DNA from: a virus
Virus record (IMG/VR): IMGVR_UViG_3300028829_005568
Direction: 5' to 3' (one strand)
DNA: 64,000 nucleotides
Positions 1 to 57,033 of the stretch are shown here, one piece after another. The number at the start of each line of letters is the position of its first letter. The stretch's first letter is position 1. Made by a program: the position numbers and the translations under genes. The notes under the pieces were generated by a model, which searched no databases, had not been told where the DNA came from, and saw nothing but the letters and a program-made list of their open reading frames with translations.

Positions 1-1
1 T

Positions 2-2518: not shown

Positions 2519-2527
2519 AAAGAAATT

Positions 2528-4633: not shown

Positions 4634-4635
4634 TC

Positions 4636-6585
4636 ATGGGAAAAAAGAAAAATAAAATAGCTGATATTAAAGCTCATCTTCTAAGACAGAAAGATAAATA
4701 TACTAAGCTTAAAGAGAATGCTACACATGAAGCAGATACTAACACTGCTAACATAAAACTTAAGCAAGTAGAAGACGGTTTAGCAGAAGTAGATGCTTTC
4801 CAACAAGCTAATAATGGTAACAATGGTGGCCAGCAACAGCCACAAGGTATGCAGCCTCAGCAACAAATGCCAATGGGTAATCCAGGAATGGGACAACCAC
4901 AATTTGCTAGGAATGGGGGACACCTTAATATGTATCCAGATGGTGGCTATCTTACTCCTGAAGGGTATGCTGCTATAAACAAATTTGAAAATACATCAGG
5001 AACTTTTGATAAATTAGGTAATCCTATAGGAATGGGGAAGGGAGATAACTATGCTCAAACAGGAGGAAATAATCCACAAGCTGTAGCAGATATAGAAAAC
5101 TTTATTGATAAAAAAATAGGAAAGAATGTTTGGGATAAAATGCCTGAAGAAATGAAAGTTCAAGCATATTCATTTATGTTCAATCATGGAATAGAGACTA
5201 AAGATAAAGAAGGAGATTTACTTAAAGGAATAGCTCAAGCAATACAACAATCTGATCCTGATACTTTTCCTGAAACTTATGGAGATGATGGTGCAATGGC
5301 TAGAGGAAGACTGTCTAACGAAGAAGCATTAAAAATTGTTAAAGAAGCTGATTATTCTAATCCTACTATCTATAATAATTATGTAAATGTTTTAGGCTCC
5401 CAACTTGACTCATTGGGATTAAATTTTCCAGAAGGGTATAGAGAAGCATATGGAAATAGAGCAATAGACATTAATAATTACTACGATAAACCTAGTGAAC
5501 AAGGAAATAGTCCTTCTAATCAACCTCCTACAGATAATGCAGGGACTACTGGACAAGGTGATTTAGATTATATGAAAAGTATAAATGATGACAAATATTC
5601 TCAGTTTAGTGGGGCAACTTCTGATGTCTACACAGGACTAGGTTCAAATTTACCATCTGATCCTGGTTATAATTGGAATGATCCTGGAGTATCAAATCCT
5701 AATGTATATAAAGAGCAAGAAGAAAAATTATTTAGTAATGATGATGATGCACCATATGACTATAATAATAATGGCGAAGGTGATACTTTTCCTACAAAAC
5801 CATACAATTTTGATATACCATTATATACTCCCCCAGGAAAGGCTACAGGACATGATTATGATGGTGACGGAATAAATGATGATTGGCCTGTTAGATTAAA
5901 AGAGAAAGAAGAAGACGATGATGATGATGATAATAATGAGAAAAAAGAAAATGATGGAATATATACATCTCCTTATCAAAGAAAAAATGACACTCTTTCT
6001 AATTGGGCACAACTAGCTGGACCTGCTTATTCTATGGCTCTTGGATTACAAAAACCAGATGAATTTCCACTTATAAAAAACCAGTATGAAGGAGATATAC
6101 TAAATGCTTTAAAACCTAACTATGAAACTTATGATCCCCAAATAGAAGCTCTAAGAGATGCTAAAAGAAAAACTATAGCTGGAATACCTGGTTTTTCAGG
6201 AGGAAGTGCTAACCAAGCTTTATTAGCTACTTCAGCTGCTGGATTAGGTTATGGAGATAAAATGGCACAAGCTATAGCCGCTACTAATTCACGTAATAAT
6301 CAGATTAAAACACAAGCAGGTTTAAGAAAAGCACAAGCTTTACAACAATTCTATGCACAACAAGCTAGTGAGAAAGGACAGAAAAGACAGTTTGATCTTG
6401 GTAGTAAAGCCAAACAACAAGATCTAATACGTCAAGGTTTAGGAGATTTTGGAAAATATTCAGAAAGAGAAGATATAGATAGAAATACTACAGATATGAA
6501 TCTTCAACAAATGGAAATTCTTAGAAGTCAATATCCAAGAGCATACGCAGATGTAATGAATCCAAAATATTACACTGTACAATAA
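4636..6585 (+). CDS. Putative cargo/ejection protein with lysozyme-like (GH24-like) domain
   Basis: Residues encoded at about 4950-5485: EGYAAINKFEN...MPEEMKVQAYSFMFNHG resemble the phage muramidase pattern (AGIALIKxFEG...L..NQFDALVSFAFNVG). Q-rich linker, DYDGDGIND motif, helical Ala/Gln-rich C-terminus. Confidence 0.55.
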   Translation: MGKKKNKIADIKAHLLRQKDKYTKLKENATHEADTNTANIKLKQVEDGLAEVDAFQQANNGNNGGQQQPQGMQPQQQMPMGNPGMGQPQFARNGGHLNMYPDGGYLTPEGYAAINKFENTSGTFDKLGNPIGMGKGDNYAQTGGNNPQAVADIENFIDKKIGKNVWDKMPEEMKVQAYSFMFNHGIETKDKEGDLLKGIAQAIQQSDPDTFPETYGDDGAMARGRLSNEEALKIVKEADYSNPTIYNNYVNVLGSQLDSLGLNFPEGYREAYGNRAIDINNYYDKPSEQGNSPSNQPPTDNAGTTGQGDLDYMKSINDDKYSQFSGATSDVYTGLGSNLPSDPGYNWNDPGVSNPNVYKEQEEKLFSNDDDAPYDYNNNGEGDTFPTKPYNFDIPLYTPPGKATGHDYDGDGINDDWPVRLKEKEEDDDDDDNNEKKENDGIYTSPYQRKNDTLSNWAQLAGPAYSMALGLQKPDEFPLIKNQYEGDILNALKPNYETYDPQIEALRDAKRKTIAGIPGFSGGSANQALLATSAAGLGYGDKMAQAIAATNSRNNQIKTQAGLRKAQALQQFYAQQASEKGQKRQFDLGSKAKQQDLIRQGLGDFGKYSEREDIDRNTTDMNLQQMEILRSQYPRAYADVMNPKYYTVQ

Positions 6586-6596
6586 AAAATAAAACA

Positions 6597-9326
6597 ATGG
6601 CAAATATATATACAAATTTAGCGTCCCATAGATCAACTTATGCTCCTACAGAACAGAAGATGCCTTTTCAAGCATATGCTGCAGTAGGGGCCCATCAACA
6701 ACAAAGAACTGATAAACTTCTAAAAGAAGCCAGTGAAATGGGATTGGATATAGATCCTATGAAATATGATGTTGATGAAACATCTAATTTATTAAAAGGA
6801 TTTCAAGAAGAACAACAAAATATAGTAGATAATTTTGATAACCTTTCTGATAATGATTTAGTTAATGAAGTTAATAAATTAAGATTTAAGAAGGCTATGG
6901 CAGGGAAACCTGGTACTCCAGAATATAATATAAACCAAAGGAATGCAATTCATACTAGTAATATTAAAAAAGCTACTACAGCTGCCAAAAAGGACTATAA
7001 TAAAACAGAATGGTTTAATTTAAATGCTGATTTAAATAGTAAGGAGTCAGGTAATAGCCAAAATGAAGATGGTACTTTTAATGAAGTGCCTGAATTAAAT
7101 TTTCAGGAGCATGTAGATGGTGCTACATTTACTAAACTAGGAAATGATATATTACTGAGAAAATCAAAAAAGATTCTTACACCAGAAAAAATAAGGATTG
7201 TAGAAGATATTGTAAGAAGTAGTAGTGAAAATGGGATTGATTTAGAACAGACTATGAGTTTTATAAAAAAAGAGGGAACAGTATCTGGGAATGAGTATGC
7301 TCAGTTATACTCTGATTTATTAAATCAATTAAATACTCCACAAAATAAAAAATCCTTATCAGATGAGGTAGACGCTGAGTATTATCAATACTTAAAACAA
7401 CGAAATAATTATTTACCTATAGAAGAACAACTAACTCCAGAAGGATTAAGAGATCAAGTTTTTTCTTATCAGCAAGGTGATATAGAAGACCCTAGTTTCC
7501 AAGGAGGACTAACTAGTCAAGAGTATGCTGATGAAAAACTAAAATCAAAAGTTGGAAGTATGGCGGATATTGCAACTGAGAGCACACAAGCTGGTGGAGC
7601 TATGGCTACTATACCAGGACAAGGAGGGGTAAATAAAGGGGGAAGTGATGAAGAAGAAGAAGAAGAACTAGCTAGAGTTTTTTATAATACAGAGCCAGTA
7701 AACTTATCTCCATCTGGTGATTTTAGTGTACAGGCAGCTGAAGCTTCTTTAAAAACTAAAAAAGATAAATTACAAATTTTAAAAGACGCAGCAGAAAAAA
7801 AACGTAATAGTGGTGAGGCTTATGGAATGAATAATGCTCAAAGAGATGAATATGTACGACTGAAAAAAGAAATAAATACTGATGAACTGTATTTAAGAAG
7901 TTTGGAACAAGATGTATATAAAAATCCTAAAGCAAGGAAATTAGCCATGCAAACTTTTATAGATCAATCTACTAAAGTTGATAAAAATAATAATCCTACA
8001 ATATGGGCAGCTTTTACCGGTGGCACAAATCCTTGGGACTTAGAAAAAGGCCCTTGGAATACTGGTAGCGATGGGACATATTTAAACACTGAAGACTTAT
8101 ATAAAAAAGATAAAGAAAAATATTTGGATTATTTTATGAGAAGAGCTCTTCATAGAGAAGAGCCTGTAGCAAGAGAATGGTTTAGATATTATACAGGATT
8201 AGGAACTAATAAATTTTTAGGAGATGAGACTGCAATTAAAGTACTTGGAAATAAGTTAAGAGAAATAATAGATGAAGAAGTTACTACTACAAATAACACT
8301 TATAAACCTTTAGTAATATCAGACAGTGAAATTGACCCTAAAAATAAATTTTCTTCTCCTGGAATAGTTTCTGAAACTAATAATAAAATAGCAAATTCAA
8401 TATCAAATAATCCTGCTGGATATAGAGTAGTAGGTGTGCAAGATGGAGAAGCTTCTATAGATTTAAATACTTTTATGACGAACCTTCAAAAAACATATGG
8501 AGTAGCATTTAAAGTACAAACAGAGATAGATGATGTTGGAATGTCTAAAGGTGCTAATTTAATAATTCCAAGAGAAGGGGAGGAAGCAGCAGCTATGGTT
8601 ACTTTAATACCTAGTCAAGGGCAGATGAGTAATGATGCATGGGATGATCTATTAGATCAGAAGACTCCCTATTGGAGAAAAGAAGATATGAAATATGGAG
8701 AAATGGCATATATATCTAACTTTTCAATAAAGATCCCTGTTACTAGTTTAGGTAAAGAATCTTCTAGAACATGGAATAATAATATAGAAGAAATGGCGAA
8801 TGGAATGTATGACCAGGCTTTAGGTTCTAAGCCAGGTCCAAGTAGGACTGATCTAATAAATGACGCTAGATTTATTAAAGCTAATTTAGCAGTAGGAGAT
8901 AAATTTGGTGGTGCTATTATGCTAGAACAGTCTCATGCTTGGCCACTTGAAAGTGAAATGATTAATGGTAAAAGAGTATATAATGAGGAGTCAGGAAAAA
9001 GTGAACCTGTTCCTATAGACTATTGGAGACATCCAACAAAAGGAGATATTCCTATATATATTAGAAAACATTCAGATAAGCCTATTAATAGTGAAATTTT
9101 TGAAGGTCCAGCTACTAGTGTTGCCCATGCAACACAGTTTGAAATATTAGATAATAATAAAGAAGTAATGACTGATAATCAAGGTAACCCTATGGTTGCA
9201 GGAAGTATAAGAGACCTGGAAGTAAAATGGTATGAATATTTAGGGCGTTTAGCGGTTAGGTTAAATATGAAAGATGAGTTTGTAGATAATTATGTAGAAA
9301 TGGACCCTAATTATACGGGAAAGTAA
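6597..9326 (+). CDS. Putative cargo/ejection protein (909 aa; about 1034 aa if frameshifted)
   Basis: Long ORF in the cargo cluster immediately upstream of the virion RNAP; ends ...ACG GGA AAG TAA. Confidence 0.6.
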   Translation: MANIYTNLASHRSTYAPTEQKMPFQAYAAVGAHQQQRTDKLLKEASEMGLDIDPMKYDVDETSNLLKGFQEEQQNIVDNFDNLSDNDLVNEVNKLRFKKAMAGKPGTPEYNINQRNAIHTSNIKKATTAAKKDYNKTEWFNLNADLNSKESGNSQNEDGTFNEVPELNFQEHVDGATFTKLGNDILLRKSKKILTPEKIRIVEDIVRSSSENGIDLEQTMSFIKKEGTVSGNEYAQLYSDLLNQLNTPQNKKSLSDEVDAEYYQYLKQRNNYLPIEEQLTPEGLRDQVFSYQQGDIEDPSFQGGLTSQEYADEKLKSKVGSMADIATESTQAGGAMATIPGQGGVNKGGSDEEEEEELARVFYNTEPVNLSPSGDFSVQAAEASLKTKKDKLQILKDAAEKKRNSGEAYGMNNAQRDEYVRLKKEINTDELYLRSLEQDVYKNPKARKLAMQTFIDQSTKVDKNNNPTIWAAFTGGTNPWDLEKGPWNTGSDGTYLNTEDLYKKDKEKYLDYFMRRALHREEPVAREWFRYYTGLGTNKFLGDETAIKVLGNKLREIIDEEVTTTNNTYKPLVISDSEIDPKNKFSSPGIVSETNNKIANSISNNPAGYRVVGVQDGEASIDLNTFMTNLQKTYGVAFKVQTEIDDVGMSKGANLIIPREGEEAAAMVTLIPSQGQMSNDAWDDLLDQKTPYWRKEDMKYGEMAYISNFSIKIPVTSLGKESSRTWNNNIEEMANGMYDQALGSKPGPSRTDLINDARFIKANLAVGDKFGGAIMLEQSHAWPLESEMINGKRVYNEESGKSEPVPIDYWRHPTKGDIPIYIRKHSDKPINSEIFEGPATSVAHATQFEILDNNKEVMTDNQGNPMVAGSIRDLEVKWYEYLGRLAVRLNMKDEFVDNYVEMDPNYTGK

Positions 9327-9700
9327 ACGGGAGCCCTGCGCCTAGCCCAAAGACAGTTAATGGATATAAACCTTTATCAGAAATAAAAGGACTTACAATA
9401 GATTCTCAAGTATCTAATAGTTCTATAAATGAAAATATTTATGATGATTTTGAAAATTTATCTAATAATTTTCCTGGATTAATTGTAACTTCGGCAACTA
9501 GAAGTCAGAAGAAACAGGATGAATTAGTAGCAGCAGGTAAAGGTGTGAAGAACTCTAAGCATATAGAAGGTAAAGCATTAGATTTTAAACTTAATGATTC
9601 TTCTAAAAAATTACTTAATTTATCTAAATCAGAATTAACAGCCTACGGTATAGAAGATGTTTTAATGCATCATAATCACGTACATATAGAATATATATAA
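9311..9700 (+). CDS. Start-less Zn peptidase M15 (LAS-type) domain; predicted frameshift extension of 6597..9326
   Basis: Hand translation: ...GKVNGSPAPSPKT...PGLIVTSATRSQKKQDELVAAGKGVKNSKHIEGKALDF...HNHVHIEYI*. Has SxxR, H-x6-D (9560-9583) and HxH (9677-9685). No ATG/GTG/TTG upstream of the domain in this frame. Confidence 0.8.
   Translation, partial: LYGKVNGSPAPSPKTVNGYKPLSEIKGLTIDSQVSNSSINENIYDDFENLSNNFPGLIVTSATRSQKKQDELVAAGKGVKNSKHIEGKALDFKLNDSSKKLLNLSKSELTAYGIEDVLMHHNHVHIEYI
9317..9323 (+). other. Predicted -1 programmed ribosomal frameshift site G GGA AAG
   Basis: Same heptamer as the lambda gpG/gpGT frameshift, in the correct phase, directly before the TAA at 9324-9326; the -1 frame stays open for 125 further codons. 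Confidence 0.8.
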
Positions 9701-9703
9701 TTT

Positions 9704-12700
9704 ATGGGAACACAGCAAGAAGAAGAACTAACAGAGATAGAACAAGCTATTAAACATGAAAGACAGCTCAGAGGGGAGTCTGATATAGTAAATAGACCTG
9801 TAACTACAGATAGAGATAGTGTATCTAGGAGTGATATAAATACAGATATGTTAGAGGCTCTTAATTATGAGAGTAATATTAATAAAATAGCATCAACTAC
9901 ATATAGTGACTTTTCTGATGTAGGTAGTATTTCTAGTGAAGAACTAGAAGAGTATGAAAATTATCTACCACAAGGTATTGCTGATTTAGATAAAGCTAGT
10001 ATTGAAGAACTTGTATCTGATGCTCAAGGTGTTAGTGGTAAATTAGGGTCAGGTGTTACAAGATTAGGTGCTACAGCTCTTACTAAGTTTGGAGAAGGTG
10101 TGGCTTTTACAGGGGCACTGGCTCTTCAAGCTCTTAATCCAATTAATTGGGGAGAAGATTATACCGCTAAAGTAGTTGGTAAAGCTGCTGATAATGCTAT
10201 CTCAGAAGCTTTTAGTATGGCAGAAGATTGGGTAAAAGAAGAATTAGCCCCTATATATGAGTCCCAAGCTTATAAGAATGGTAACTGGATAGAGCAAGCA
10301 GGTACTGTAGATTTTTGGGCAAGTGATTTTGTAGATGGATTAGCTTTCTTACTTAGTTCTTATGGCGGTGCAGCACTAGCAGGTAAAATTGGTATGGCGG
10401 GTAAAGTTGCTGCAGGATTGGGTAAAACAACTGGAATAAAAAATATAGCTGCTTTAGAAAAAGTATTAGGGCATGCAGGTACTACAGCTTTTATTTCTTC
10501 GGGAGAAGCAATGTTTGAAGCTAAAGAAATTAAAGATGATCTTTTAAGAAGAGGAGTAAATCCTAGGGTAGCAGCGGCTAAAGCTAGGGATGCCTTTTTA
10601 TTAAACATGGCTGTACTTAGTGTTTCTAATTCTGTACAACTTGGTGCTATGAAAAAAGTTTTAAATCCTTCTGGTTCTGGTAAAATTAAAGGACTGGGAA
10701 TTAAAGGGGGAAAACTTGTTGATACATCTAAAGATCTTAAAGGTTTTAATAAATATTTAAAAGGAAAAACAGGGGCAGTAGGTAGAGCAATAGGCCTTAA
10801 TGTTGCCTCTGAAGGTTTCTATGAAGAGAATGCACAAACTGCTATTCAAAACTTAATGACAGATTATGGTACTGGTAAAGAAATAGGTAATGTATTTGAT
10901 GCACTTTCTGAATTACCTGGCGGCATGGTAGATAATTTAGGAACTAATGAAGGACAAAAAGCTATTTTTCTTGGGTCTATAATAGGAGCTTTAGGTGGTG
11001 GAGCTGGGCAATTACGTCAAAGTATAGGAGAAGAGCAGGCAAGAGATAATTTCTTAAAAGCTATTGATGACCTTGGTAGCTCCATGTCAACAGATAAAAG
11101 TTTATATAAAAGACGTGTAACAAAAGAAAAACCAAAAGGTAGTATAGTATATGAAGAAGGCTCTCCAGAAGCAGCTGAAGCTTATGGGGAAATTATCAGA
11201 CATGATGATAAAAAAGTTGTAGTTAAGACTAAAGAAGAGTTTGAGAGACAAAAAGATGAAGAATATGAAGTATCTGAATTAATATATGATAGTGAAGGAA
11301 ATCCACAATTAGACCATGCAGCATATGCTAAAATATATTCTGATAAAAAAGTAAATCAAGACTTAGATTATTTAATAGATGCTGCATATAAGAATAAAGA
11401 TTTTGCTACTTATAGAGTACTAAAAGGAGAAAAATTTCAAAGACTTGCGTATGAATATTATAATGCGGGATTAGGTAATGAATTTTTAAAACTTCTAGAA
11501 GAGTATAAAACTTATGATGCTGAGACATTAGCAGAAATGGGCTATACAAACATGGAAGAATCTGAAGAAGGTGCTTCTAAAAGTCATTCCCAAATTATGG
11601 ATGACTATATAAAAGATGCTAAAGAGTTAAAGAAAATATATGATACTATAGAAAAAACTGTAGTAAATACTGGATTTAGAAAAAAAGAACTAGATGGAAA
11701 ACTTACTGCCTCTAAAACAATTACAGCTCTTCGTAAAAAAGAATTAAAAAATCTTGCTGCTAGAGAGTATTTTGTAAATAAAGAACTAAATATAGCTAGA
11801 AGAAAAAGAACAGATCTTTTACTTAAAGGTGAGGCTTCTAATCTTGCTACTCAAGATAATGAATTTAAGACTAGAATATCTAAATTAGATGATGATATTT
11901 TAGATTTAGTAGCTAAAAAGAAAGCATCTAAAGATAAAACAGAAATAGCACAATTAAGAGAAAAAGAAAAAGAAGCACGGGCTCTTAGAAGAGATCTTAA
12001 AAAGAAATATAAAACATTCCTAAGAAGATTTGGAGAAGAAGTAGATATGCTTTATACCGCTCCAGGACGTAAACAAGGCTATGTAACAGAATCTGTTGAA
12101 GGAATGGAAGAGGAGAAAAGACTTTCTCCTGTAGCTAAAACAGAACTCAATGCAGAAGAAGTAAAAATAGCTGAGCTAGCTAATGTCAGAGACTTAATGC
12201 AAAGAGAAGTTAATAAATTACTAGATCCAACTAAAGGGTATAAATACTATATTGATAATGTACTTAAATTAAATAAACTTAAAACAGCAGGTAGAGTAAC
12301 TAAAATGTCTATAAGAGACCTGCTGATAGGTACTTATGATGATTATATTGCATATGAAGAGGGAAGAGTTAAAAGTGCTAGAGTAAAACAAAGTTTAGAC
12401 CAAAAAAATGAAGAGGATTTTGATGATGCTGTACGTCAACGTATTGCGGCTCAGGAACCTATTGTAAGTATTATACAAGATATATTAGAACTAAAACCAC
12501 CTTTATCTAGAGATACTATTAGTTTAGTAGAGAGACAATTGAGGATGGATATTAGGGATGCTAATACTGAAAGATTAGATTTAACTTCAGGATTAGAAGT
12601 CCGACTTAACTATCTACAAGAAGAGCTGCAATATGCTTTAGATGCAAGTGATTATGAAAACATTGATATACTTACTCCCCAAGTTAAAGAAACTGAAGAT

Positions 12701-15700
12701 CAACTTTCAGAATTAATAGATAATGAACAATATAGAGAACTATCTAGAAGAGTTGAGGGACTTAAAGAGTATCAAGGCAAAGTAAGGGATCTTAAATTAT
12801 ATGAAAAAAATACAGCAAACTTAACAGACCAAGAAATTAAAGTTAAAATAGCTAAAGATTTATATAGTAGTTTAGTAAAAGAAATAAAACAAAATTTTGA
12901 ACTTAATGAAGAGTATGACAATGAAGAAGAAATAAATATAGCTATAGCTGTATTAAGAAAATTAGGAAATATTTTTAAAGAAAGAGAGGGCTTTGAGTCT
13001 TTCTCTAAAGAAATTGAAGAAGAGATAGATTCTCTTGTAGCTATTAGAAAAGAAATAAAGAAAAGAAAAGAAGATAAAGAAAGAAAACAAACAGAAATTT
13101 GGGAAAATTATACTAAAAAAGCATGGGGCTCTTTTGGAATTTATTTTGAAATAGATGAAGATGGTAAAGTAGATATATCTTATTCTGCAGAAGAGGAAAA
13201 AGTAATTAAAATACTTAAAGACAATATAGAAGATTTTGAAGAAATAATAGATTCTGCGTCAAAAGATAATATGGCCCCTATTTATGCAGATATATTATTA
13301 CAAAAAGCTAGAAATTTAGTAAATGAAGATGCTAAAGTAAACAAAGAATTAAAAGAAGAATTAGATTCTTTATATAAAATAAAGTTTAAAAAATTAATTG
13401 ATATAGACTTAAAGAAAGGATTCTTTTATAATGGTAAAAAAGGAAGACTAGCTAAAACAATGCTTACTAAAGATCAAGCTAGAGAATATTTTGCATCTCC
13501 TGAAAGATTTACAGATGAGTTAATTATCCTACTACAAGATACAGGAAATGGTGAAGCTGAATATGACTTGACTAAAGGGAGTGCTATAGATACTTTCATA
13601 AAAGATAAAGACATAATAAACCTTAAAAAGAATCTATTAAAAGAAATTGAAGAAAAATCTGATGTATCTGAAGAATTTCCTGAGTCTACCAGACAAGCTA
13701 TTTATGATGATATTTTAGCACATGAAGCAATAGTAGATACATATGCATTAAGGAATGAAATATTTGATACTTCTTATGATATAGCTGATGAAATAGAAAC
13801 AGAAATAATATCATTAAATCAAGATAAAAAAACTCCTGCTCCTACAGCTCAACAAGTTATAGCTCTAAGGGCACTAATTAAATTTATATCTAAACCTATT
13901 GATACTCTTAATAACTTTGACGGTTGGGCTTATTTAAAAGGATTTGCTGGTACAGGTAAAACTAATGTTACTTTAAAATGGGCGATTAATATACTAGGAA
14001 TTAAAAATACAGAAAGTGAAATTTATGCTTTTGGCCATACTGATAGTTCTACTAAAACAGTTATTAATAGCATTAATTCTTTAAGTACAGCTTCTTTAGA
14101 AAGCCTGCTTAAAGAGGGAGTTCCTGAAGTTACTAAACTTATTGTTATAGATGAAGTAGGAGCTATTTCAAAAGAACAACTTATAGAAATAAGTAAAAAA
14201 ATATCAGATATTAACTCAAAGAGAGAGGTAGAAGATAGAGTTAAAGTAATTACTTTAGGGGACCCTAATCAAAGAACAGTTACAAGACAACTTAAAGCAC
14301 CTATTGATCAAATGCTTCTTCTCCCTGGTTCTTCTAACATGGTTAATATACAGCCATTAACTGTTCGCTATAGATCTAATGTTGGACCGGTAGTTTCTTT
14401 TCAAGATCTTTTTATAGGACAAAGGGATAATATGTTAGAGAGAGAGCCATTAGTTACAAAATCTAATACTCCTGATATAATGAATGAGAGTAATGAATTT
14501 CAACCTTTAGGTGTATTTGGTACTAATAGTTTTGAAAAAAATATTACTAGAGTCCTTAAAGCAAGAGAAGGAAGTAAAACAAGTAAAGCTGTTATTGTAA
14601 ATGATAAAGATGTAGAGTATTATAAACAATTACTTAAAGATGCTGGGATTACAGATGTAGAGGTATTAGATGTATATAATGTTCAAGGACGTACAATTGA
14701 TGAAGTGTATATTAACCTTAAAAAAGATAATTCTTATTTAACAGATGTTTCATATAATACTGATATATACACTGCTACTTCTAGAGCAGCTAAGTTTATT
14801 TATATAGGAGAAATACCTAGTAAAAATGAGTTAGATATAGAACTAAATACTGACAGTAAAGAAGCTTCTAAAAAAATAGCATCCCGTAGAAGGGAATATG
14901 AAGAACAATTAGATAGAGATCTAGGAGTAATAAATAAATACTACAAAGAAGTAATTCCAGATACAGGTACAGAAGAAGGAGAAACAGTAGAAGAAGAAGA
15001 AACAGAAAAAGGGGAAGAAGGGGAAATTGAAATTGATGAGAATGGAGAAACTGCAGAAGAAAAAGCAATAGAAGTAACTAATGATGACCCAGAAAATATT
15101 GATGAATATGATGTAAAAGATATTGAAGTAGAAATAAAAGATGAAATACCATTAACAGAAAATGAAGTAGACCATATAGTGGCTTTTCCTGAAAAAACTG
15201 CTACTGGTCCTATAACAGAAGAAGGAGAGGAAACTATTAAAGGACTAGAAATAGGAGATAAAGTAGAATATGTACTAACTAAATGGCTTGATAAAAAAAC
15301 AAAAGAATATGTACCTAGTATAGTAGTAGTTAAAAAAATTAGTGAAGGCACTTATAGAAGAATAGCCGTCATAGGTAACGAGGATATAATAAATAGATTA
15401 CCTGAAGACATTGCTAAAATTTTATCTAAAGCAAAAGATAATATAGGGATATCAGATAATTGGGTAGAATTTAGCTCTGTAAGTGGGGATATCCTAACAA
15501 CTGAAGATAAAATAGGCTATAATAAAAAAGAAGGTGAAGTAGCTCCTATTTATACTGGTACTATTAAAAGAACTCCCACTGGTTTAAAATATATTTATAA
15601 TGGTGGAAATCCTGAAATACTAACTAGAAGCGTACTACAAAAAATAGTTAAAAAATTTAAGGAAACTTTTTTTAGTAATGAAGAAAAGCCTGGAGAAGTA

Positions 15701-41713: not shown

Positions 41714-41969
41714 ATAAATAATCTATTGGATGTTTAAATATTTCAGATGTTACAATAGTAGTAGCACCTGAATCCATATACCACTTTCCTATGTATTTTG
41801 GTAATATTACCATTGTTATGTATAACCAATTATTAGATTTATATTCTATAAAATCATTATAATGGATAAGTTCATCACTGTGCTCAATGACATTAGAAAC
41901 TCCCATGAAATTAATCATGAGAGCTCTAAGTTTATTTAACTGTCTTTCAGTCAAAGTCAATGTCATCAT
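41676..41969 (-). CDS. Hypothetical protein
   Basis: 97 aa, co-oriented, overlaps both neighbours. Confidence 0.45.
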   Translation of the reverse strand: MMTLTLTERQLNKLRALMINFMGVSNVIEHSDELIHYNDFIEYKSNNWLYITMVILPKYIGKWYMDSGATTIVTSEIFKHPIDYLYEEYIEKRTNTK

Positions 41970-43644
41970 TAACAGCAGTTACATTTGTTTCTACAGGATT
42001 TTCCCACCAATCATCATCATCTTCTTTTTCCTCAATGATCTCCTCATCAGCCTTATCTTCAATTATCTTTTCTTCGATAGTTTCTTCAGTTTTAATCATA
42101 TCAGCTTCTTCATCAGCCTTATTATCAGGAATAACTTCTACTTCTTCTAACTTATCCCAATCATCGTCTTCTTCTTGGTTTAAATTATTAGTTGGTGTAA
42201 ATTGATGCCCTCCTTCTACGCCTTCAATAGAATGAGGTAAGTCATCATTAGTGCATTTATCTTCAGTAGGAATAATAGATAATTCTTCTAAAGCTTCTGT
42301 AACTCCTTCTATTAATTCTTCATTATCAGGAACTGTTTCAGAAATACCATATGCTGCTGGATTATTTTTCAAATCTTCTTCTGCATCTAATTCTGTAGCA
42401 TCAATAATATTAATATTAGGATTATCATTAATACCTTTCATAACTACTTTACATAGCGGAAATGATATATCAAGAATATCTTGATTAATTAAATTTCCAT
42501 AAGTATTTTTAATAACTTTATTAGCTAAAGAAAGAGCTACTGATTGAATAGATGATATAACATTCATATCTAATTGAGAATATTTATGTAAAAATTCTAT
42601 TTTTGTTTCCTCAGTATAATCATAATATATATCTAATCCACTAGATTCTCTAAAAGTTTTAAAATTAACAGAATTATATGCTGAATTATACCTCATAGTC
42701 TGATTAAACACTTTCATAATATCAAAGACATATACAGCTGATTTTTCTATATTACAATTGGCTAAAACTTCCATAGCTAAAGTATGATTATCCTTATCTG
42801 TTGATTTGAATAAATTACACATTTGATCATACATATCTTCATCAATTTCTGGACTAGCATCTTGAAGAGATTTATTAATAGCTGTATCTAAATAGTAAGA
42901 GCTATCATTGCCGTTTAATGTATTTTCTATAACATCTGATATAAAATCTTCTTTGAATACTTTTGTATAAACATTACAAGGATAATATTCTTCAGGTAGT
43001 GAAATAGGATCTATTAACGGCTCTTCCCAAGTAGTTTTATAAATTTTATAAACATCTTTATAGTCAAAAATAGGAAAACTAATATAATTTTTTTGAATAT
43101 CTGAATAACCTAATAATTTCATATTATCGGCCAGTAATAGTGTATGAAAACTATAATTTATATATATTTTCTCATTATTATCTACTAAATCATTAAACAT
43201 ATCAAGACTTTCTTTTTCCCAATTATTATAATTTATTTCACTTAAATTATATCTATCAAAATCTTCAGAATGATGGTCTATCCATAATTTAATCATATTA
43301 GCGGGAACGTCATAAAAACTTCCTATTCCTTCTATATATTTATCAGAATTTGAAGATATAAATTTATGAGTACCATTAGTTTCTTTAATAGTAACAGATA
43401 CTCCTAATGATTTCCACATCTCTCGTATTTTAAATCTTGGAACAGTACATCCAGTAAAAAGATATAATCTATCTTTTTTACAAGGAGTATATTTTTTAGA
43501 TTCTAAAATTTCATATGCTTCTGATAACTTTTTTTCGTCTACTACTTTTAAAATAGATATATCTATAGTAGTTGGGTCTACCTGATTGGACCAACTACTT
43601 CCTTTACTTAAATTAAGTACTAAAATATTTTTAATTATTGACAT
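41947..43644 (-). CDS. Hypothetical protein with possible N-terminal BRCT-like domain and acidic tail
   Basis: LYLFTGCTVPRFK...THKFIS resembles a BRCT start; very acidic C-terminus; adjacent to the MoxR/VWA pair. Confidence 0.55.
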   Translation of the reverse strand: MSIIKNILVLNLSKGSSWSNQVDPTTIDISILKVVDEKKLSEAYEILESKKYTPCKKDRLYLFTGCTVPRFKIREMWKSLGVSVTIKETNGTHKFISSNSDKYIEGIGSFYDVPANMIKLWIDHHSEDFDRYNLSEINYNNWEKESLDMFNDLVDNNEKIYINYSFHTLLLADNMKLLGYSDIQKNYISFPIFDYKDVYKIYKTTWEEPLIDPISLPEEYYPCNVYTKVFKEDFISDVIENTLNGNDSSYYLDTAINKSLQDASPEIDEDMYDQMCNLFKSTDKDNHTLAMEVLANCNIEKSAVYVFDIMKVFNQTMRYNSAYNSVNFKTFRESSGLDIYYDYTEETKIEFLHKYSQLDMNVISSIQSVALSLANKVIKNTYGNLINQDILDISFPLCKVVMKGINDNPNINIIDATELDAEEDLKNNPAAYGISETVPDNEELIEGVTEALEELSIIPTEDKCTNDDLPHSIEGVEGGHQFTPTNNLNQEEDDDWDKLEEVEVIPDNKADEEADMIKTEETIEEKIIEDKADEEIIEEKEDDDDWWENPVETNVTAVNDDIDFD

Positions 43645-51208: not shown

Positions 51209-51539
51209 GTTTTTGGGTTTTTTGGGTTTTTAATTGTTTTATTTTATTTTTAATTTTTGCACAATATTTCCAGAAATCTGATTGCTCATCTATAATTCTA
51301 TGAGTTTCTGGGACAGGTATGTATACATATACTCCATCTCCGTCTTTATGCTTCTTACAAACCATAGTATTTATTACTACAGCTTTTGGATCATTTCTTT
51401 GACTTATTTGTAATTTCCCATCACTATCAGTCCAAAAATAAGTGTATTCAGTTAATACACTCATTATATAATTCTTATCAGGATCTAAATCAAATTGTAA
51501 TTTAGACCCTACTTCCCATCCTGTATTATTATCTATCAT
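51186..51539 (-). CDS. Small early-region hypothetical protein
   Basis: 117 aa, overlapping neighbours. Confidence 0.5.
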   Translation of the reverse strand: MIDNNTGWEVGSKLQFDLDPDKNYIMSVLTEYTYFWTDSDGKLQISQRNDPKAVVINTMVCKKHKDGDGVYVYIPVPETHRIIDEQSDFWKYCAKIKNKIKQLKTQKTQKHEEINKP

Positions 51540-51729
51540 AATAATAAGTATTTATTTTTTTGGCTACAGTATAATTGTGGCATATTACTATACAACCACA
51601 ATATATTTGCAGTTGTCTAGCATCTTCATATCTATAAGAAGGGCTACTACTTTTTTTTACTTTTATACCAAGTAAAAATGCTAGATCTAAATATATTCCT
51701 ATTTGTTTAGTTTTTATTAATTTTTTCAT
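51529..51729 (-). CDS. Small early-region hypothetical protein
   Basis: 66 aa; preceded by AAAACCCCCAAA. Confidence 0.45.
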   Translation of the reverse strand: MKKLIKTKQIGIYLDLAFLLGIKVKKSSSPSYRYEDARQLQIYCGCIVICHNYTVAKKINTYYYDR

Positions 51730-51739
51730 TTTGGGGGTT

Positions 51740-51937
51740 TTAACTATTATCTACTATTTTTGTTATTAATTCAGAAGGTAATCCTCCTTCTATTATAGGA
51801 GCTTCTAGTAATATATTTGCTATTTGCATAAATATCCCAAAGTCCTCATTTACTGATTCTTCAAGTAAACGTATCTTAGTCTCAACTGACTGTGCCAGTA
51901 AAAACTTTGTTGCTGCTTCATCTTTTTTAGTAATCAT
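51740..51937 (-). CDS. Small early-region hypothetical protein
   Basis: 65 aa. Confidence 0.45.
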   Translation of the reverse strand: MITKKDEAATKFLLAQSVETKIRLLEESVNEDFGIFMQIANILLEAPIIEGGLPSELITKIVDNS

Positions 51938-52204
51938 AACTATTATTTTTTAGTTTTAACTTTTTCGTGAGCAGTACGAGATATTTTTGTCCCGTCATCA
52001 AGAGTAGTGATATACACTACCTCTTCCATTTTTTGACCTTTGTGCAACTTCTTCCATGCACTAATTACTTTTCTTGTTGTGTTCATGTTTACATTATTTA
52101 ATATTTAATTGAATTCTGTTTAATAAAAATCTCCTACACCACCATAGAGATAGACATCATTACGTGGGGCCTCAAAGGGCTGATGACTTTAATATGTTAT
52201 GTTT

Positions 52205-52438
52205 TTATGATAGTTTACTATAAATTTCATTTGTATTGTAGAATGTATCAGTTGTTCTTTTTAAATCATGAGATGAAAGTTTAGGCTTATAATAATCCTC
52301 TCTTGTGCCCCATTGAGAATTTAATTCATCCTCTATAATAGTTACAACGCAACTATCTTGATTTCCAAGCTCCTCACTTGCTTTAGCCACAATATCTTTC
52401 ATTGTACCTAATGATATATTTATCATTTTGAATGCCAT
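52205..52438 (-). CDS. Small early-region hypothetical protein
   Basis: 77 aa. Confidence 0.45.
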   Translation of the reverse strand: MAFKMINISLGTMKDIVAKASEELGNQDSCVVTIIEDELNSQWGTREDYYKPKLSSHDLKRTTDTFYNTNEIYSKLS

Positions 52439-52489
52439 GTCTTTATCTTTTTTAAGTTTGTAATGTTTTTAGATATATAATAAACAAAA

Positions 52490-52940
52490 AAGCGTGTTCT
52501 TTACACCACAATAGATTGCTCAAGCTAACACTCAATGAGTGTGCAAGGCTGTGCCTATTGGTAGGATTGAAACCTACATCTCTTTTTCTACTAAAATAAT
52601 CTCCAGTATCATGTGGGCGCAGTGGACAGATACTAAAACGGTTCATTTGATCATACCCAACCGTAGGGAGATTATTAAGTTAAATTCTCTACTATTTATA
52701 GCCTTACCTGCCTTACTTGCGACCTTTTACAGCACCATCTTTTATTCAATTGGCAAAAGATGGTTTGGTAAGTATTTAGTGTAATATTTCCTGAACTTGA
52801 TTAGAGCCCATTACTGGTAAATATTACTTGGCACTACTTACTACCTAAGTTATCACGCTTAGTTTGCAAGTAGAGAGCTAATTTAATTTAAAATAAAAGG
52901 ATAGCAGAACTAATGTTCCTATACCATCAATGGGCTTATT
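52490..52940 (-). ncRNA. Candidate large structured non-coding RNA, family unknown
   Basis: Nested perfect helices of 6-10 bp, a closing helix, a possible pseudoknot and a U-run after the 3' end on the - strand (see findings). Confidence 0.5.
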
Positions 52941-53196
52941 AAGCATCACTAATATTCTAAATTAAATCATCATAAAATTAACTAAATCATGATTCTTTAA
53001 TTTTACTGGAACTGCCGTTATTCATCAAGTTCTTAAGTGATATATCATGTGATTTGGTTGTAACCCCATATCATGAACCAAGGGTAATGAAGTAGTACTC
53101 CTTCATTAGATTTAACAAAATAGCTATATATTCTTTTAAATCATAATAAAATAGAGAAAAGCGTTATAGTACTTTTTCTTCCCTCTATCTTATTAA

Positions 53197-53469
53197 TCAT
53201 AAATATTCGTATATGTTTTTAAACATTACAAAACATAGCGTAAACCATGTTGTAAATATAATAGCTGTAAAGGCCAGGACTATTAATCCTGCAGCTATTG
53301 AAGTTAATATAGTTCTGATTGCAGAACTGTACATTAGGATACATAATGTTAAGTATCCTACAGTTAGAGATAATGTATATAGATACATTGTATCATAAAC
53401 ACATTTATCTAAGTATACTCCCAGCAATATCACCAGAAGTATACCTAAAACAAAAAGTTTCCTGTTCAT
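53197..53469 (-). CDS. Small membrane protein (three hydrophobic segments)
   Basis: 90 aa, almost entirely hydrophobic. Confidence 0.5.
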   Translation of the reverse strand: MNRKLFVLGILLVILLGVYLDKCVYDTMYLYTLSLTVGYLTLCILMYSSAIRTILTSIAAGLIVLAFTAIIFTTWFTLCFVMFKNIYEYL

Positions 53470-53924
53470 AATGAAAACTTTTTAATGATATTCTCTATTT
53501 CTTTCTTTTTTTCTAAAGGATATTTATATCCTAAGATAGTACTTAACTTATTTCCGTAAATATTATAAAATCCTTCATGATTAAATTGAGAGATCTTTTT
53601 TACACTGCCATCAGGTTGTGTAATATCAATGCTTACTCTTTTAGAATAAGAGTAATACAGTTCAAACTCTTTAGGCAGAACACTTTGTAATGCAGCCTGA
53701 AACGCAGGACTTCCTGCTGGCTGTATTATATCGTAGCACATATTTTCTTTGCACCATACTAAGAATTTTATTGCTAAAGAAACTAAATTCTGGCCTTTAG
53801 TATTGTTAGCCATTTCATTTTTTATTTCTTCCGGCAAATCCAAAGAATTTAATCCTTCTAATTCGCTTTTTTGCAGCTTAGTCATTTCATGTGCAGCTGC
53901 ATACACGTAGTTTATTTTTTTCAT
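53466..53924 (-). CDS. Early-region hypothetical protein
   Basis: 152 aa; preceded by AACCCAAAAAACAACAAA. Confidence 0.55.
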   Translation of the reverse strand: MKKINYVYAAAHEMTKLQKSELEGLNSLDLPEEIKNEMANNTKGQNLVSLAIKFLVWCKENMCYDIIQPAGSPAFQAALQSVLPKEFELYYSYSKRVSIDITQPDGSVKKISQFNHEGFYNIYGNKLSTILGYKYPLEKKKEIENIIKKFSL

Positions 53925-54182
53925 TTTGTTGTTTTTTGGGTTAATTAATAATTAAAGAACTGTGTTAATTCACCTCATTAAGATATCCCCCTACATGTGA
54001 CGAGGAATACTCTTTAATATTTATAAAAACAGTCATTGACTCAGCTCCTTAATGCGTCATTGTCTACTGTTGTGGTATGGTACAAGATTTCTCCCGGCCT
54101 GCTACCATCTTTACAGGCTTATAGTTATTAACATATTTTGTAATATAGTTTGTAAAAATGAGGGAATTTCACCCTCTTTTAA

Positions 54183-54521
54183 TTATAAGCTTTCGTTTAT
54201 GGAAAGCTCTCTTTTATATCTATACAATAGCTCCCCTAGAGCATCATGTACAAAAAGATCTCTTTTCTTGTGCATATGCATTTCTCTTTGAGTCTGGATT
54301 TTATCCAGATAATCCGATGCTAATGGTATATCATCATCTTTAATAGCACCATCTTTAACTAATTTTATTAGTGCCATGAAATACTTTATTATTCCGATAT
54401 ATTTACTCAAAGTAATAGGATCTCCATTCTTATTAGACAAATATATATTGTCATTTAACGAAAACATTATATCTATAATTTCAGCATCTTTTATTCTCCA
54501 ATTTTTTATACTTTCAAACAT
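54183..54521 (-). CDS. Early-region hypothetical protein
   Basis: 112 aa; preceded by hairpin + AATACCCCAAAAAAA. Confidence 0.55.
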   Translation of the reverse strand: MFESIKNWRIKDAEIIDIMFSLNDNIYLSNKNGDPITLSKYIGIIKYFMALIKLVKDGAIKDDDIPLASDYLDKIQTQREMHMHKKRDLFVHDALGELLYRYKRELSINESL

Positions 54522-54538
54522 TTTTTTTGGGGTATTGT

Positions 54539-54555
54539 GGGGACACGAGGTCCCC
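54539..54555. promoter_or_regulatory. GC-rich hairpin (ggggac-5nt-gtcccc) upstream of an early gene
   Basis: Perfect 6-bp stem; same layout as 54785-54805. Confidence 0.45.
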
Positions 54556-54562
54556 TAATTAT

Positions 54563-54766
54563 TTAATAATTTAAATCTTCTTGCTCTTCTAACATTATAT
54601 CTACTAAAACTTGTTCAGCATACTCAAAGTTTTTAACTTTAGGTAAATTAGCAAAATCATTAGCTATTTGAGCTGGTGAATGGTTAAGTTGCCAAGATGT
54701 TAGCTTCTCATATTTTCTATCTAATACATAGATAAACTCATCATTGTATGCTATTATTTCGTACAT
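54563..54766 (-). CDS. Early-region hypothetical protein
   Basis: 67 aa; preceded by hairpin + AATACCCCAAAAAA. Confidence 0.5.
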   Translation of the reverse strand: MYEIIAYNDEFIYVLDRKYEKLTSWQLNHSPAQIANDFANLPKVKNFEYAEQVLVDIMLEEQEDLNY

Positions 54767-54784
54767 TTTTTTGGGGTATTAAAA

Positions 54785-54805
54785 TAGGAGACTACCTGTC
54801 TCCTA
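54785..54805. promoter_or_regulatory. Hairpin (taggagac-5nt-gtctccta) upstream of an early gene
   Basis: Perfect 8-bp stem; followed by TTTT on the - strand, so it could also be a terminator. Confidence 0.45.
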
Positions 54806-55094
54806 CTATTGATTTAACTAATTCTTCGTCACTTACTTGATGACCTTCTGCCAGGTCACTATAGTAAGAATTTTCTTCTTCTTCTAGATTATTCATTAAC
54901 TCTAGTTTTTGAAACTTCATCCAAGATTCTTCTAATTTTTTTGTATCCATAATATATTGTTTTTTTGGGGTTTTTTAGCTATGTAATACTAATAAAGTAA
55001 GAAATGTGTATTTCTTAAATTACTAAATTGTGCCAGGCAATAACAGAGATAAGATGATAAGGACACTAAAGTCGCTGACTTCGGTAGATCTATT

Positions 55095-55127
55095 AAAAAA
55101 AACCCTACCATATTTCTATGGTAAGGT
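55095..55127 (-). terminator. Intrinsic terminator
   Basis: taccata/tatggta stem with flanking cc/gg pairs and an 8-U tail on the - strand. Confidence 0.7.
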
Positions 55128-55148
55128 CTTATTAGATTAGATTAAATG

Positions 55149-55568
55149 TTACTCTTGCTCTTCATCAAGCATACCATTAAACAAGGCTTTGTTAATTATT
55201 AACTTCTTCTTCTGCTCTTCGTCTGTTTTATCAGCACCAGCAGGAAAGTAACTAATTTCCTCCGCTTGAATAACAATATTAAGTTTCGTACCTTGTTTTA
55301 CATTATCACACATTTGACGGCTGACAGGGATTTCCTCCCCATTAGTAGTCAATAATACGCAATTAACATACTTCTTAGACTTAGCATCTTTTTGGGATGT
55401 TATTGTGCCCCAAGAAGGGGAACCAATCTCCACGTCCTCCGTATCTCCATCACTAAGGTGTGGAAACGGTAACGGCTTCATTATTGTAACGTTCTTATCA
55501 TTGGATAAAGTTTTTAACGCTTTATCCATTTCTGTAGTTGTTTTGTAGGTGTTTAATACTCTTGACAT
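55149..55568 (-). CDS. First gene of the leftward unit, hypothetical
   Basis: Likely start ATG 55568 (MSRVLNT); has its own terminator. Confidence 0.55.
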   Translation of the reverse strand: MSRVLNTYKTTTEMDKALKTLSNDKNVTIMKPLPFPHLSDGDTEDVEIGSPSWGTITSQKDAKSKKYVNCVLLTTNGEEIPVSRQMCDNVKQGTKLNIVIQAEEISYFPAGADKTDEEQKKKLIINKALFNGMLDEEQE

Positions 55569-56224
55569 TTTTGAATATATTAAGTTTGAATAAATGCTAC
55601 TACAAAAGAACCCATTGGGTCCCTTTGCTGGCAAAACTTTGCAGGGGTTACTCTATATGGAGGTAAAACTTCACGACTACTCATAAAATTTTTAAAAAAA
55701 TTATTTAAAAAAAAATTACAAAGAGATGTATAGTCTTAGAAAAATATTTAGAAAGTAGTTGAAGAAAATATCAAGTCCAGGTATAGGATCTCCTACGGTT
55801 ATGGAGATTAATAGAGGGAGGAAGTAAAGTGTGTATTTTAGTTTGCTCATTGTAAAAATATTATTTTACAAAGGAACTATAAGGAGAGGATAATTGTAAG
55901 AGTGAAAAGGTGTATTTTTTAATGTACTAGTTTTCTGGTACGTAATTAAAAAGGAGGTAATGGTCTATTGATATTGTGCAGATAAAAGACCTGAAAGAAC
56001 TTTTTCCTCCTTTAGTTATTTTGTTACCCCTCCTCTACAAAGAAAAGCCCTCCCTTTTTTAAAAATACCTCTCCCTAAGAAAGAACCACTATTTACTAGG
56101 AGTAAGTGCGATGCCTTAATCGCAAGATTGCACGAAGCTACTATTTATTTGCCACATACACAAGTTTTATTAAATATTTATTATTTTTAGATTTAGCTTT
56201 ATTTTAATTGTATATATTTGCATT

Positions 56225-56512
56225 ATGGAATTTGATTATGAGACAGCGGTAGGCTTAAAGTTTTTTGTGGGACCTTTGGACTTGACAGGAAAAGGCGCCA
56301 TAGATACTTTTAAGTTTATGTTTAATAGTGACAACCCAGATTTCATAGATGAGATGGAGGACCCCAGTGGAGTATTTACTGGAGATAATATTATGACTTG
56401 TAAATTCTTTGATGAGGAGGAAGGAGTAATGTATGTGCATTTTGATAAAGAAGTAGATAGAGAAAATCTTTCTATGTTTGAAGATAGAGAGATGATTTAT
56501 AAAAAGATTTAG
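56225..56512 (+). CDS. Hypothetical acidic protein
   Basis: 95 aa; TATATTTG (56213-56220) matches the Bacteroidota -7 element TAnnTTTG just upstream. Confidence 0.55.
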   Translation: MEFDYETAVGLKFFVGPLDLTGKGAIDTFKFMFNSDNPDFIDEMEDPSGVFTGDNIMTCKFFDEEEGVMYVHFDKEVDRENLSMFEDREMIYKKI

Positions 56513-56556
56513 TGTGGGTCCCATTTTTGGGACTATTGTTTTGTTTGTTTTTAATG

Positions 56557-56585
56557 AAGGGAGCCTAATGGGCTCTCTTTGTTTT
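56557..56585 (+). terminator. Intrinsic terminator
   Basis: aagggagcc/ggctctctt stem followed by tgtttt. Confidence 0.65.
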
Positions 56586-56597
56586 TAATATAAAATA

Positions 56598-56629
56598 TTT
56601 GTTGATCTAATAAATAGTAATTATGTTTG
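56598..56629 (+). promoter_or_regulatory. Bacteroidota sigma-A type promoter
   Basis: TTTG (56598-56601) - 20 nt - TATGTTTG (56622-56629) matches the -33/-7 consensus, 20 nt before ATG 56650. Confidence 0.6.
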
Positions 56630-56649
56630 CAAAGAGCAATAGTTAATTT

Positions 56650-57033
56650 ATGGAGAATAGAAGAGTTATCCCTATTAGTACAACAAGTGAAAAATTTTAC
56701 AAACAAGTAGTAGTATTATTAAATCCTATATTAAGATTAAGAGGAAAAGAGCAAGATGTACTAGCACAACTTATGTATTATAATAATAAGTATAAAGATC
56801 TAGATGAAAGTATTAGATGGAAAGTTATTATGGAATATGATACTAAGACAGAAATACAAAATAATTTAGGGATATCTGCTGCATCTATGTATAATTATTT
56901 ATCTGCACTTAGGAAGAAAGGTATTATAATTAAGAATAAGGTACATCCAAATTATTTGATTACTCCCAACAAAGAATTTAGTCTGAAATTTAAATTTACT
57001 ATTAATGAGCCCATTACTGAACAAGTTAATTAG
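56650..57033 (+). CDS. Putative winged helix-turn-helix DNA-binding protein
   Basis: EIQNNLGISAASMYNYLSALRKKGII HTH-like pattern. Confidence 0.6.
   Translation: MENRRVIPISTTSEKFYKQVVVLLNPILRLRGKEQDVLAQLMYYNNKYKDLDESIRWKVIMEYDTKTEIQNNLGISAASMYNYLSALRKKGIIIKNKVHPNYLITPNKEFSLKFKFTINEPITEQVN

What the first reader, a model, noticed from the sequence alone, without database searches (positions are those of the whole stretch)
52490..52940. Large nested RNA architecture in the early region
Seen (+ coordinates): closing helix aagcgtg 52490-52496 / cacgctt 52854-52860; acactc/gagtgt 52528-52542; aaggct/agcctt 52545/52700; a three-way junction formed by aataatctcc/ggagattatt (52595-52604, 52667-52676) enclosing agtatc/gatact and acggtt/aaccgt; accatctttt/aaaagatggt 52734-52764; gtaatattt/aaatattac 52781-52827. 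Loop sequence agcccatt (52805-52812) is complementary to aatgggct (52929-52936), a possible pseudoknot. A T-arm-like hairpin GTAGG-TTTCAAT-CCTAC lies at 52561-52577, and a U-run follows the closing helix on the - strand. So many perfect helices are unexpected in this AT-rich genome. Inference: an undescribed phage ncRNA, ribozyme or regulatory leader.
Basis: partly seen in the sequence, partly recalled or inferred. Interest (0 to 1): 0.65.

Follow-up and report, generated by a model that had tools for sequence, protein, structure and literature searches.

The report
Back-to-front tRNA mimic in crAss-like phage
The flagged stretch of this marine crAss-like phage is not one big folded RNA but a chain of swappable RNA modules ending in a conserved 105-base tRNA look-alike with its two halves in reversed order and no anticodon, which probably marks and protects the ends of early phage transcripts.

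Summary
The listed helices exist, but the proposed single nested RNA does not hold. Relatives break its closing helix, lack the pseudoknot partner and delete the three-way junction as a block. Put back in order it passes ARAGORN; 0 of 3000 local shuffles give it. Ten homologues keep 57-61 of 63 core bases, two in phages whose polymerase DNA is only 69% identical, with different neighbours on both sides. It has no fixed anticodon, no CCA and no Ro60 motif, and no Ro60 gene lies in the 64 kb. It has YrlA topology but is not a Y RNA by the tests run. Best guess (0.45): a tRNA-derived punctuation mark that sets and shields 3' ends of early transcripts. Expression is untested, and the core shows no two-sided covariation. 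This scan has noted permuted tRNA mimics in other phages; this sequence family had no look-alike in another genome.

The parts
52486..52587 (-). Permuted tRNA-like module (about 105 nt), the conserved core of the finding
   Evidence: MFE and RNAalifold consensus give the permuted cloverleaf; reordered halves called as tRNA by ARAGORN at default threshold; conserved in 10 homologues
52582..52587 (-). 3' strand of the anticodon-like stem (tRNA positions 38-43); 5' boundary of conservation
   Evidence: one change (L185) keeps pairing as G-U
52578..52581 (-). 4-nt variable loop; A44 and U48 fixed, 45 and 46 vary
52561..52577 (-). T arm: 5-bp stem, 7-nt loop with U54, U55, A58; U instead of C at 56
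52554..52560 (-). 3' strand of acceptor-like stem (66-72)
   Evidence: pair probability about 0.95 in the isolated module
52516..52553 (-). 38-nt spacer capping the acceptor stem; irregular hairpin that includes 52528-52542; 24-43 nt and variable in homologues; no CCA
   Evidence: 38 of 43 columns vary
52509..52515 (-). 5' strand of acceptor-like stem (1-7); a possible RNase P cut would fall at 52516/52515
   Evidence: cut site is inference
52493..52508 (-). U8, G9, D arm (4-bp stem, 5-nt loop without G18/G19) and G26
52486..52492 (-). 5' strand of the anticodon-like stem running into a U6 tract; 3' boundary of conservation
52588..52680 (-). Optional three-way-junction module (helix 52667-76/52595-604 enclosing two hairpins)
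   Evidence: z -2.1; absent as one block in L106, L108, L205 and X10
52680..52882 (-). Upstream 200-nt multi-stem module: closing helix 52869-76/52686-93, stem 52781-52827, exchangeable hairpin 52734-64
   Evidence: z -2.6 in window, -4.0 in L106, -3.5 in L205; three pairs changed on both sides among 4 sequences; absent upstream of L011, L178, L179, L186, L212
52904..52949 (-).
   Evidence: absent in L106/L108 and X10
52205..52438 (-). Next early ORF (77 aa), start 49 nt past the module; a different ORF follows in L178, L179, L186, L205, L212

Best explanation
The module is a tRNA-derived punctuation mark in the early (virion-polymerase) transcription unit. Shown: it has the full helix geometry and core tertiary bases of a tRNA (U8-A14-A21, A15-U48, G9 with G12-C23, G26-A44, U54-A58). 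It is opened at the anticodon loop and kept intact while its neighbours are exchanged. Inferred: as the transcript reaches the U tract, the anticodon-like stem closes the compact fold. The RNA ends there by termination or trimming, and the fold blocks host 3' exonucleases. Whatever lies upstream (here a 200-nt and a 95-nt structured module, elsewhere other non-coding modules or an mRNA) is thus stabilised and uncoupled from the next gene. In alleles with a clean 7-bp acceptor stem, host RNase P may also cut at 52516/52515, as in M. smegmatis YrlA. It most likely arose from the facing halves of two adjacent tRNA genes. Because it is the most conserved sequence in a fast-changing region, it also serves as a crossover point for cassette exchange.
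For: Geometry. Null: 0 hits in 3000 local shuffles, none at full score in 60 whole-window shuffles; in 2.3 Mb of fetched loci the only full-score hits are homologues. Selection: 57-61/63 core bases identical, against 68.5% and 68.9% polymerase DNA identity for L179 and L212; 1 of 30 T/D/anticodon stem columns varies against 38 of 43 spacer columns. Conservation starts at position 38/39 and stops at the U tract. The module is always 40-95 nt before the next ORF, with at least four different upstream contexts. Precedent: phi14:2 has abundant early intergenic RNAs that do not decay late in infection (10.1101/2020.03.07.982082); RNase P cleaves a 7-bp YrlA acceptor stem (PMC4201824).
Against: No pair in the core changes on both sides; only four one-sided changes, and the shuffle control is not exceeded. 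Six homologues were found with a pattern that fixes T- and D-arm letters, so only L011, L106 and L212/L213 test invariance without bias. The anticodon-like stem is A-U rich and weak in register (probability 0.21 alone, 0.01 in context). The acceptor stem is interrupted in L212/L213, so RNase P cutting cannot be universal. G18, G19 and C56 are missing, so elbow-reading enzymes should bind poorly (own knowledge). High identity could partly reflect recent exchange rather than selection.
Confidence: 0.45

Rival explanations
1. Decoy or handle: the fold is presented to a tRNA-binding protein (an anticodon nuclease or other tRNA-targeting defence, a synthetase, or host Ro60). Having no anticodon loop, it binds without being cut or used.
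For: Early expression region; core bases invariant beyond what pairing needs, as reported for YrlA; no anticodon. TROVE occurs in at least one Bacteroidota control genome.
Against: Elbow bases are degenerate; no Ro-binding motif within 400 nt upstream in any of 11 sequences; no conserved handle; no co-travelling protein gene.
Confidence: 0.2
2. Obligate RNase P/3'-trimming signal: the RNA is always cut within the capped acceptor loop, giving a two-piece RNA whose upstream piece gains CCA and whose downstream piece is the leader of the next mRNA.
For: Intact 7-bp acceptor stem in 9 of 11 sequences, with changes that keep pairing; four unpaired bases follow position 72; M. smegmatis YrlA precedent.
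Against: Stem interrupted in L212/L213; bases after 72 are not RCCA; no G19-C56.
Confidence: 0.15
3. Two-way terminator or decayed tandem-tRNA scar with no tRNA-like fold in use: the A run and U run are simply terminator tails on opposite strands, and the high identity comes from recent swapping.
For: The T hairpin plus tail scores as a terminator on the opposite strand in the window and in L106; A and U runs make up the anticodon-like stem; module folding z is only -1.3 to -2.7; no two-sided covariation.
Against: Does not explain exact tRNA spacing, U8/G9/G26/A44/U48, or why L212 replaced the whole spacer while keeping both arms.
Confidence: 0.15
4. A permuted tRNA gene that is circularised at the anticodon loop and reopened to give a working tRNA, as in red algae and Thermofilum.
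For: Half order, junction position and 24-43 nt intervening length fit type II permuted tRNA genes (PMC3978253); ARAGORN accepts the reordered form.
Against: Would-be anticodon differs among near-identical alleles; flanks outside the stem are unrelated among homologues, so no conserved BHB; bacterial host; D loop lacks GG; acceptor broken in L212/L213.
Confidence: 0.03

Closest known systems
YrlA, bacterial and mycobacteriophage Y RNA (Rfam RF02553; Chen et al. 2014, PMC4201824)
   Same: Order V, T arm, looped acceptor stem, D arm; Levitt pair and other core contacts possible; T and D arms fixed while the acceptor arm varies.
   Different: No GNCGAAN0-1G motif, no long handle stem, no Ro60/TROVE gene within 4 kb or in the 64 kb, no Rfam match, degenerate elbow, true 5-6 bp anticodon-like stem, varied upstream modules.
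Circularly permuted tRNA genes, type II (Soma 2014, PMC3978253)
   Same: 3' half precedes 5' half, junction at the anticodon loop, short intervening sequence.
   Different: Known from algae and archaea, needs BHB and splicing endonuclease, and yields a decoding tRNA; here no conserved anticodon or BHB.
t-elements of plant mitochondria (PMC1920247) and mascRNA of MALAT1 (PMC8457004)
   Same: tRNA-like folds used to set transcript ends; this is what the module is proposed to work like.
   Different: Those are eukaryotic and are cut out by RNase P/Z in normal 5'-3' order (abstracts and own knowledge); here the order is permuted and cutting is untested.
Long early intergenic RNAs of crAss-like phage phi14:2 (10.1101/2020.03.07.982082)
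   Same: Same phage order, same early region, non-coding, function unknown.
   Different: No sequence or model match to this module in phi14:2 1-14000.
Two-piece (permuted) tmRNA
   Same: T arm and acceptor 3' strand precede the acceptor 5' strand.
   Different: No G3-U70, A73 or CCA, a real D stem, no tag-coding piece; ARAGORN and Rfam find no tmRNA.

Membership tests
YrlA / bacterial Y RNA | tRNA-like domain in the order V, T, looped acceptor stem, D | tested here: met
   against PMC4201824
YrlA / bacterial Y RNA | tRNA tertiary bases including Levitt pair 15-48 | tested here: inconclusive
   U8, A14, A15, U48, U54, A58 present and invariant; G18, G19, C56 absent
YrlA / bacterial Y RNA | GNCGAAN0-1G Ro-binding motif 5' of the domain | tested here: not met
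   absent in up to 400 nt upstream of all 11 sequences; L011, L185 and L190 have shorter flanks
YrlA / bacterial Y RNA | Ro60/TROVE gene within about 4 kb on the same strand | tested here: not met
   no TROVE among 41 window proteins in Pfam or PHROGs; the one Ro60-sized unknown (41947-43644) has no structural match to Ro60. Roughly a third of the genome is not held, so a distant gene is not excluded
YrlA / bacterial Y RNA | Match to Rfam RF02553 | tested here: not met
   (E up to 10)
YrlA / bacterial Y RNA | Bound by Ro60 in vivo | not testable with these tools
   needs pull-down
Permuted tRNA gene (algae, archaea) | 3' half upstream of 5' half, complete cloverleaf on reordering | tested here: met
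Permuted tRNA gene (algae, archaea) | Conserved anticodon on joining | tested here: not met
   positions 32-38 differ among alleles
Permuted tRNA gene (algae, archaea) | BHB motif formed by leader and trailer | tested here: not met
   by inspection: leader and trailer sequences are unrelated among homologues and share no conserved pairing beyond the stem; no formal BHB search was run
Two-piece tmRNA | G3-U70, A73, CCA, tag reading frame after the D loop | tested here: not met
GOLLD / ROOL / known self-cleaving ribozymes | Match to the Rfam covariance models | tested here: not met
t-element / mascRNA-type end signal | Transcript ends map to the tRNA-like element | not testable with these tools
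   needs RNA end mapping

The most novel reading that the evidence does not exclude
Marine crAss-like phages use a free-standing, Ro60-independent permuted tRNA as a plug-in 3' module for a library of interchangeable early RNAs (from 60 nt to over 1.4 kb). Host RNase P cuts it into a two-piece RNA in which a CCA-ended, possibly chargeable non-coding RNA stays base-paired to the leader of the next mRNA.
Probability: 0.12. Interest if true: 0.85.

Novelty: new variant of a known kind. Interest (0 to 1): 0.57.

Why it matters
In the papers read here, permuted tRNA folds are either spliced tRNA genes of algae and archaea or the effector domain of Ro60-bound Y RNAs. A copy standing alone, under selection, in Crassvirales would show the fold has a Ro60-independent job. 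It also gives a small, synthesizable handle on an open question raised for phi14:2: what the abundant, stable early non-coding RNAs of crAss-like phages are and how their ends are made. Standard tRNA finders and Rfam miss it, so it is invisible in current annotation.

Tried and rejected
Rfam at gathering and E-value thresholds: nothing. ARAGORN on the native sequence: nothing. BLAST of the region and of the 3' half against cultured phages: chance hits only. Exact-pattern scans of IMG/VR for the T arm, the T plus D arms, the D arm plus U run and the upstream module gave coding or chance matches, or none; the GTDB genome scan also gave only chance matches. The model hit in L026 (E 0.009) appears to lie in coding sequence and was rejected. 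Closer relatives by polymerase (L015, L017, 72-78% DNA identity) lack the module, so its distribution is patchy. Sequencing runs: no RNA holder listed. Three of four laid runs did not cover the module. TROVE could not be searched in the homologues' full records. The 565-aa protein was folded as a possible hidden Ro60 and rejected. Rejected readings: single nested RNA, pseudoknot, protein coding by the 64-aa or 81-aa ORFs, ribozyme, tmRNA, spliced tRNA, assembly artefact (L020 from a public run is 100% identical over 53200-52539).

Full report
Setting. The window is a marine crAss-like phage. Polymerase and terminase match Crassvirales best at 36-46%, and near-identical DNA is in marine metagenomes. 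The finding lies in a 750-nt gap between small minus-strand ORFs in the early region. The window allele is real: a public-run contig is 100% identical over 53200-52539, and others cover the rest.

Observation. Every listed pairing is exact, but short perfect stems are as common as in shuffles, and only the 8-10 bp class is enriched (p about 0.02). Overall folding z is about -2 on both strands. Helix counting alone therefore does not establish an RNA; relatives were needed.

Relatives split the region into modules. L106/L108 (polymerase DNA 93% identical) keep the 3' part and the 5' part. A contig in run X10 shows the same two deletions. L011/L012 are 99.8% identical downstream of 52591 and unrelated upstream. 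So the region is a chain: a 200-nt multi-stem module, an optional three-way junction, and a 105-nt terminal module.

The terminal module is a permuted tRNA fold. Read on the minus strand it runs: anticodon-stem 3' strand, 4-nt variable loop, T arm, acceptor 3' strand, 38-nt spacer, acceptor 5' strand, U8-G9, D arm, G26, anticodon-stem 5' strand, U tract. This is the MFE of the native sequence, and ARAGORN calls the reordered halves a tRNA at its default threshold. RNAalifold on 11 sequences returns the same structure unprompted. A geometric descriptor gave no hit in 3000 shuffles of the region and no full-score hit in 60 shuffles of the window; in 2.3 Mb of fetched loci only homologues reached full score. 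Core tertiary bases are in place, but G18, G19 and C56 are not (numbering from own knowledge).

Conservation. Ten homologues were recovered, through flanking proteins (L011, L106, L212, L213) or a DNA pattern (L178, L179, L185, L186, L190, L205). They share 57-61 of 63 core bases, although polymerase DNA is only 69% identical in L179 and L212 and terminase DNA 72% in L186. One of 30 T, D and anticodon-stem columns varies, against 38 of 43 spacer columns. Four stem positions change on one side and keep pairing, three as G-U, which fixes the minus strand as the RNA. No pair changes on both sides, so covariation support is absent. In L212/L213 the acceptor-like arm is interrupted and shifted by 3 nt. 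The pattern-found homologues are biased towards invariant T and D arms. Conservation begins at position 38/39 and ends at the U tract; upstream there are at least four unrelated contexts and downstream several different ORFs 40-95 nt away. The overlapping ORFs are not conserved.

Upstream module. 52680-52882 occurs in L106, L108 and L205, folds with z of -2.6 to -4.0 and shows three two-sided changes among four sequences. It is probably a structured RNA, but too few homologues exist to fix its fold, and it matches nothing in Rfam.

How it most likely works. It cannot decode: the would-be anticodon differs between alleles and there is no CCA. It is not a Y RNA by the published criteria (PMC4201824): no Ro motif, no handle, no TROVE gene in 64 kb, and the one Ro60-sized unknown protein has another fold. 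What stays constant is a compact fold ending in a U tract, placed between variable upstream RNA and the next gene. I therefore favour a punctuation and end-protection role (0.45), ahead of a decoy for tRNA-binding proteins (0.2), obligate RNase P cutting (0.15), a two-way terminator or scar (0.15) and a spliced tRNA (0.03). The fold and its conservation are shown; transcription, ends and partners are inferred. The cultured relative phi14:2 has abundant early intergenic RNAs that persist late in infection, but no homologue of this module.

Novelty. The topology is known from YrlA and from permuted tRNA genes. I found no paper on a stand-alone version in phages, within a library that lacks most subscription journals. 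Earlier notes of this scan describe permuted tRNA mimics in other phages, mostly beside Ro60-like genes and one without; none matched this sequence in another genome. Verdict: real feature, new variant of a known kind, interest 0.57.

Noticed in passing
L178:1-1440 (+): About 1.4 kb of apparently non-coding DNA upstream of the same module; 5 GNRA-capped hairpins against 1.4 in shuffles (max 4 in 100), no Rfam match; a candidate large RNA.
   Followed up: partly
L017:5133-6110 (+): 1-kb gap at the syntenic position with two unpermuted tRNA-like units (T arms at 5923 and 6069) that appear to carry large insertions in the D and anticodon loops; the first ends in CCA. No Rfam hit at gathering score.
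   Followed up: partly
L015:6738-6883 and L017:5411-5567: Shared 160-nt non-coding motif, 71% identical, absent from the window and from Rfam.
   Followed up: no
L048:7140-7282 (+): Unrelated permuted tRNA-like RNA with encoded CCA just downstream of a DUF7873 gene in a distant phage; no TROVE in the 40-kb fragment.
   Followed up: partly
L297:7020-7076 and L298: Unpermuted short tRNA-like RNA with almost the same D arm and G26 as the module, a 7-bp acceptor stem and CCA but no T arm; preceded by another tRNA-like unit with G3-U70.
   Followed up: partly
L205:2484-2582; L179:2261-2324; L185:960-1023; L190:79-142: Twister-P1-like and RAGATH-1 hammerhead-like ribozyme matches below gathering score in the early regions of phages that carry the module.
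   Followed up: no
window 41947-43644 (-): 565-aa protein next to the AAA ATPase and DUF2201 genes; family of over 500 representatives, confident model (pLDDT 81), no Foldseek match in PDB.
   Followed up: partly
window 54160-56583: Many GC-rich hairpins between early genes; 11 terminator-like sites in 51500-56700 against 1.7 in shuffles.
   Followed up: no
L368:4475 (phi14:2): Canonical T arm near the end of the long intergenic region 2904-4602, resembling a tRNA or tmRNA 3' end.
   Followed up: no
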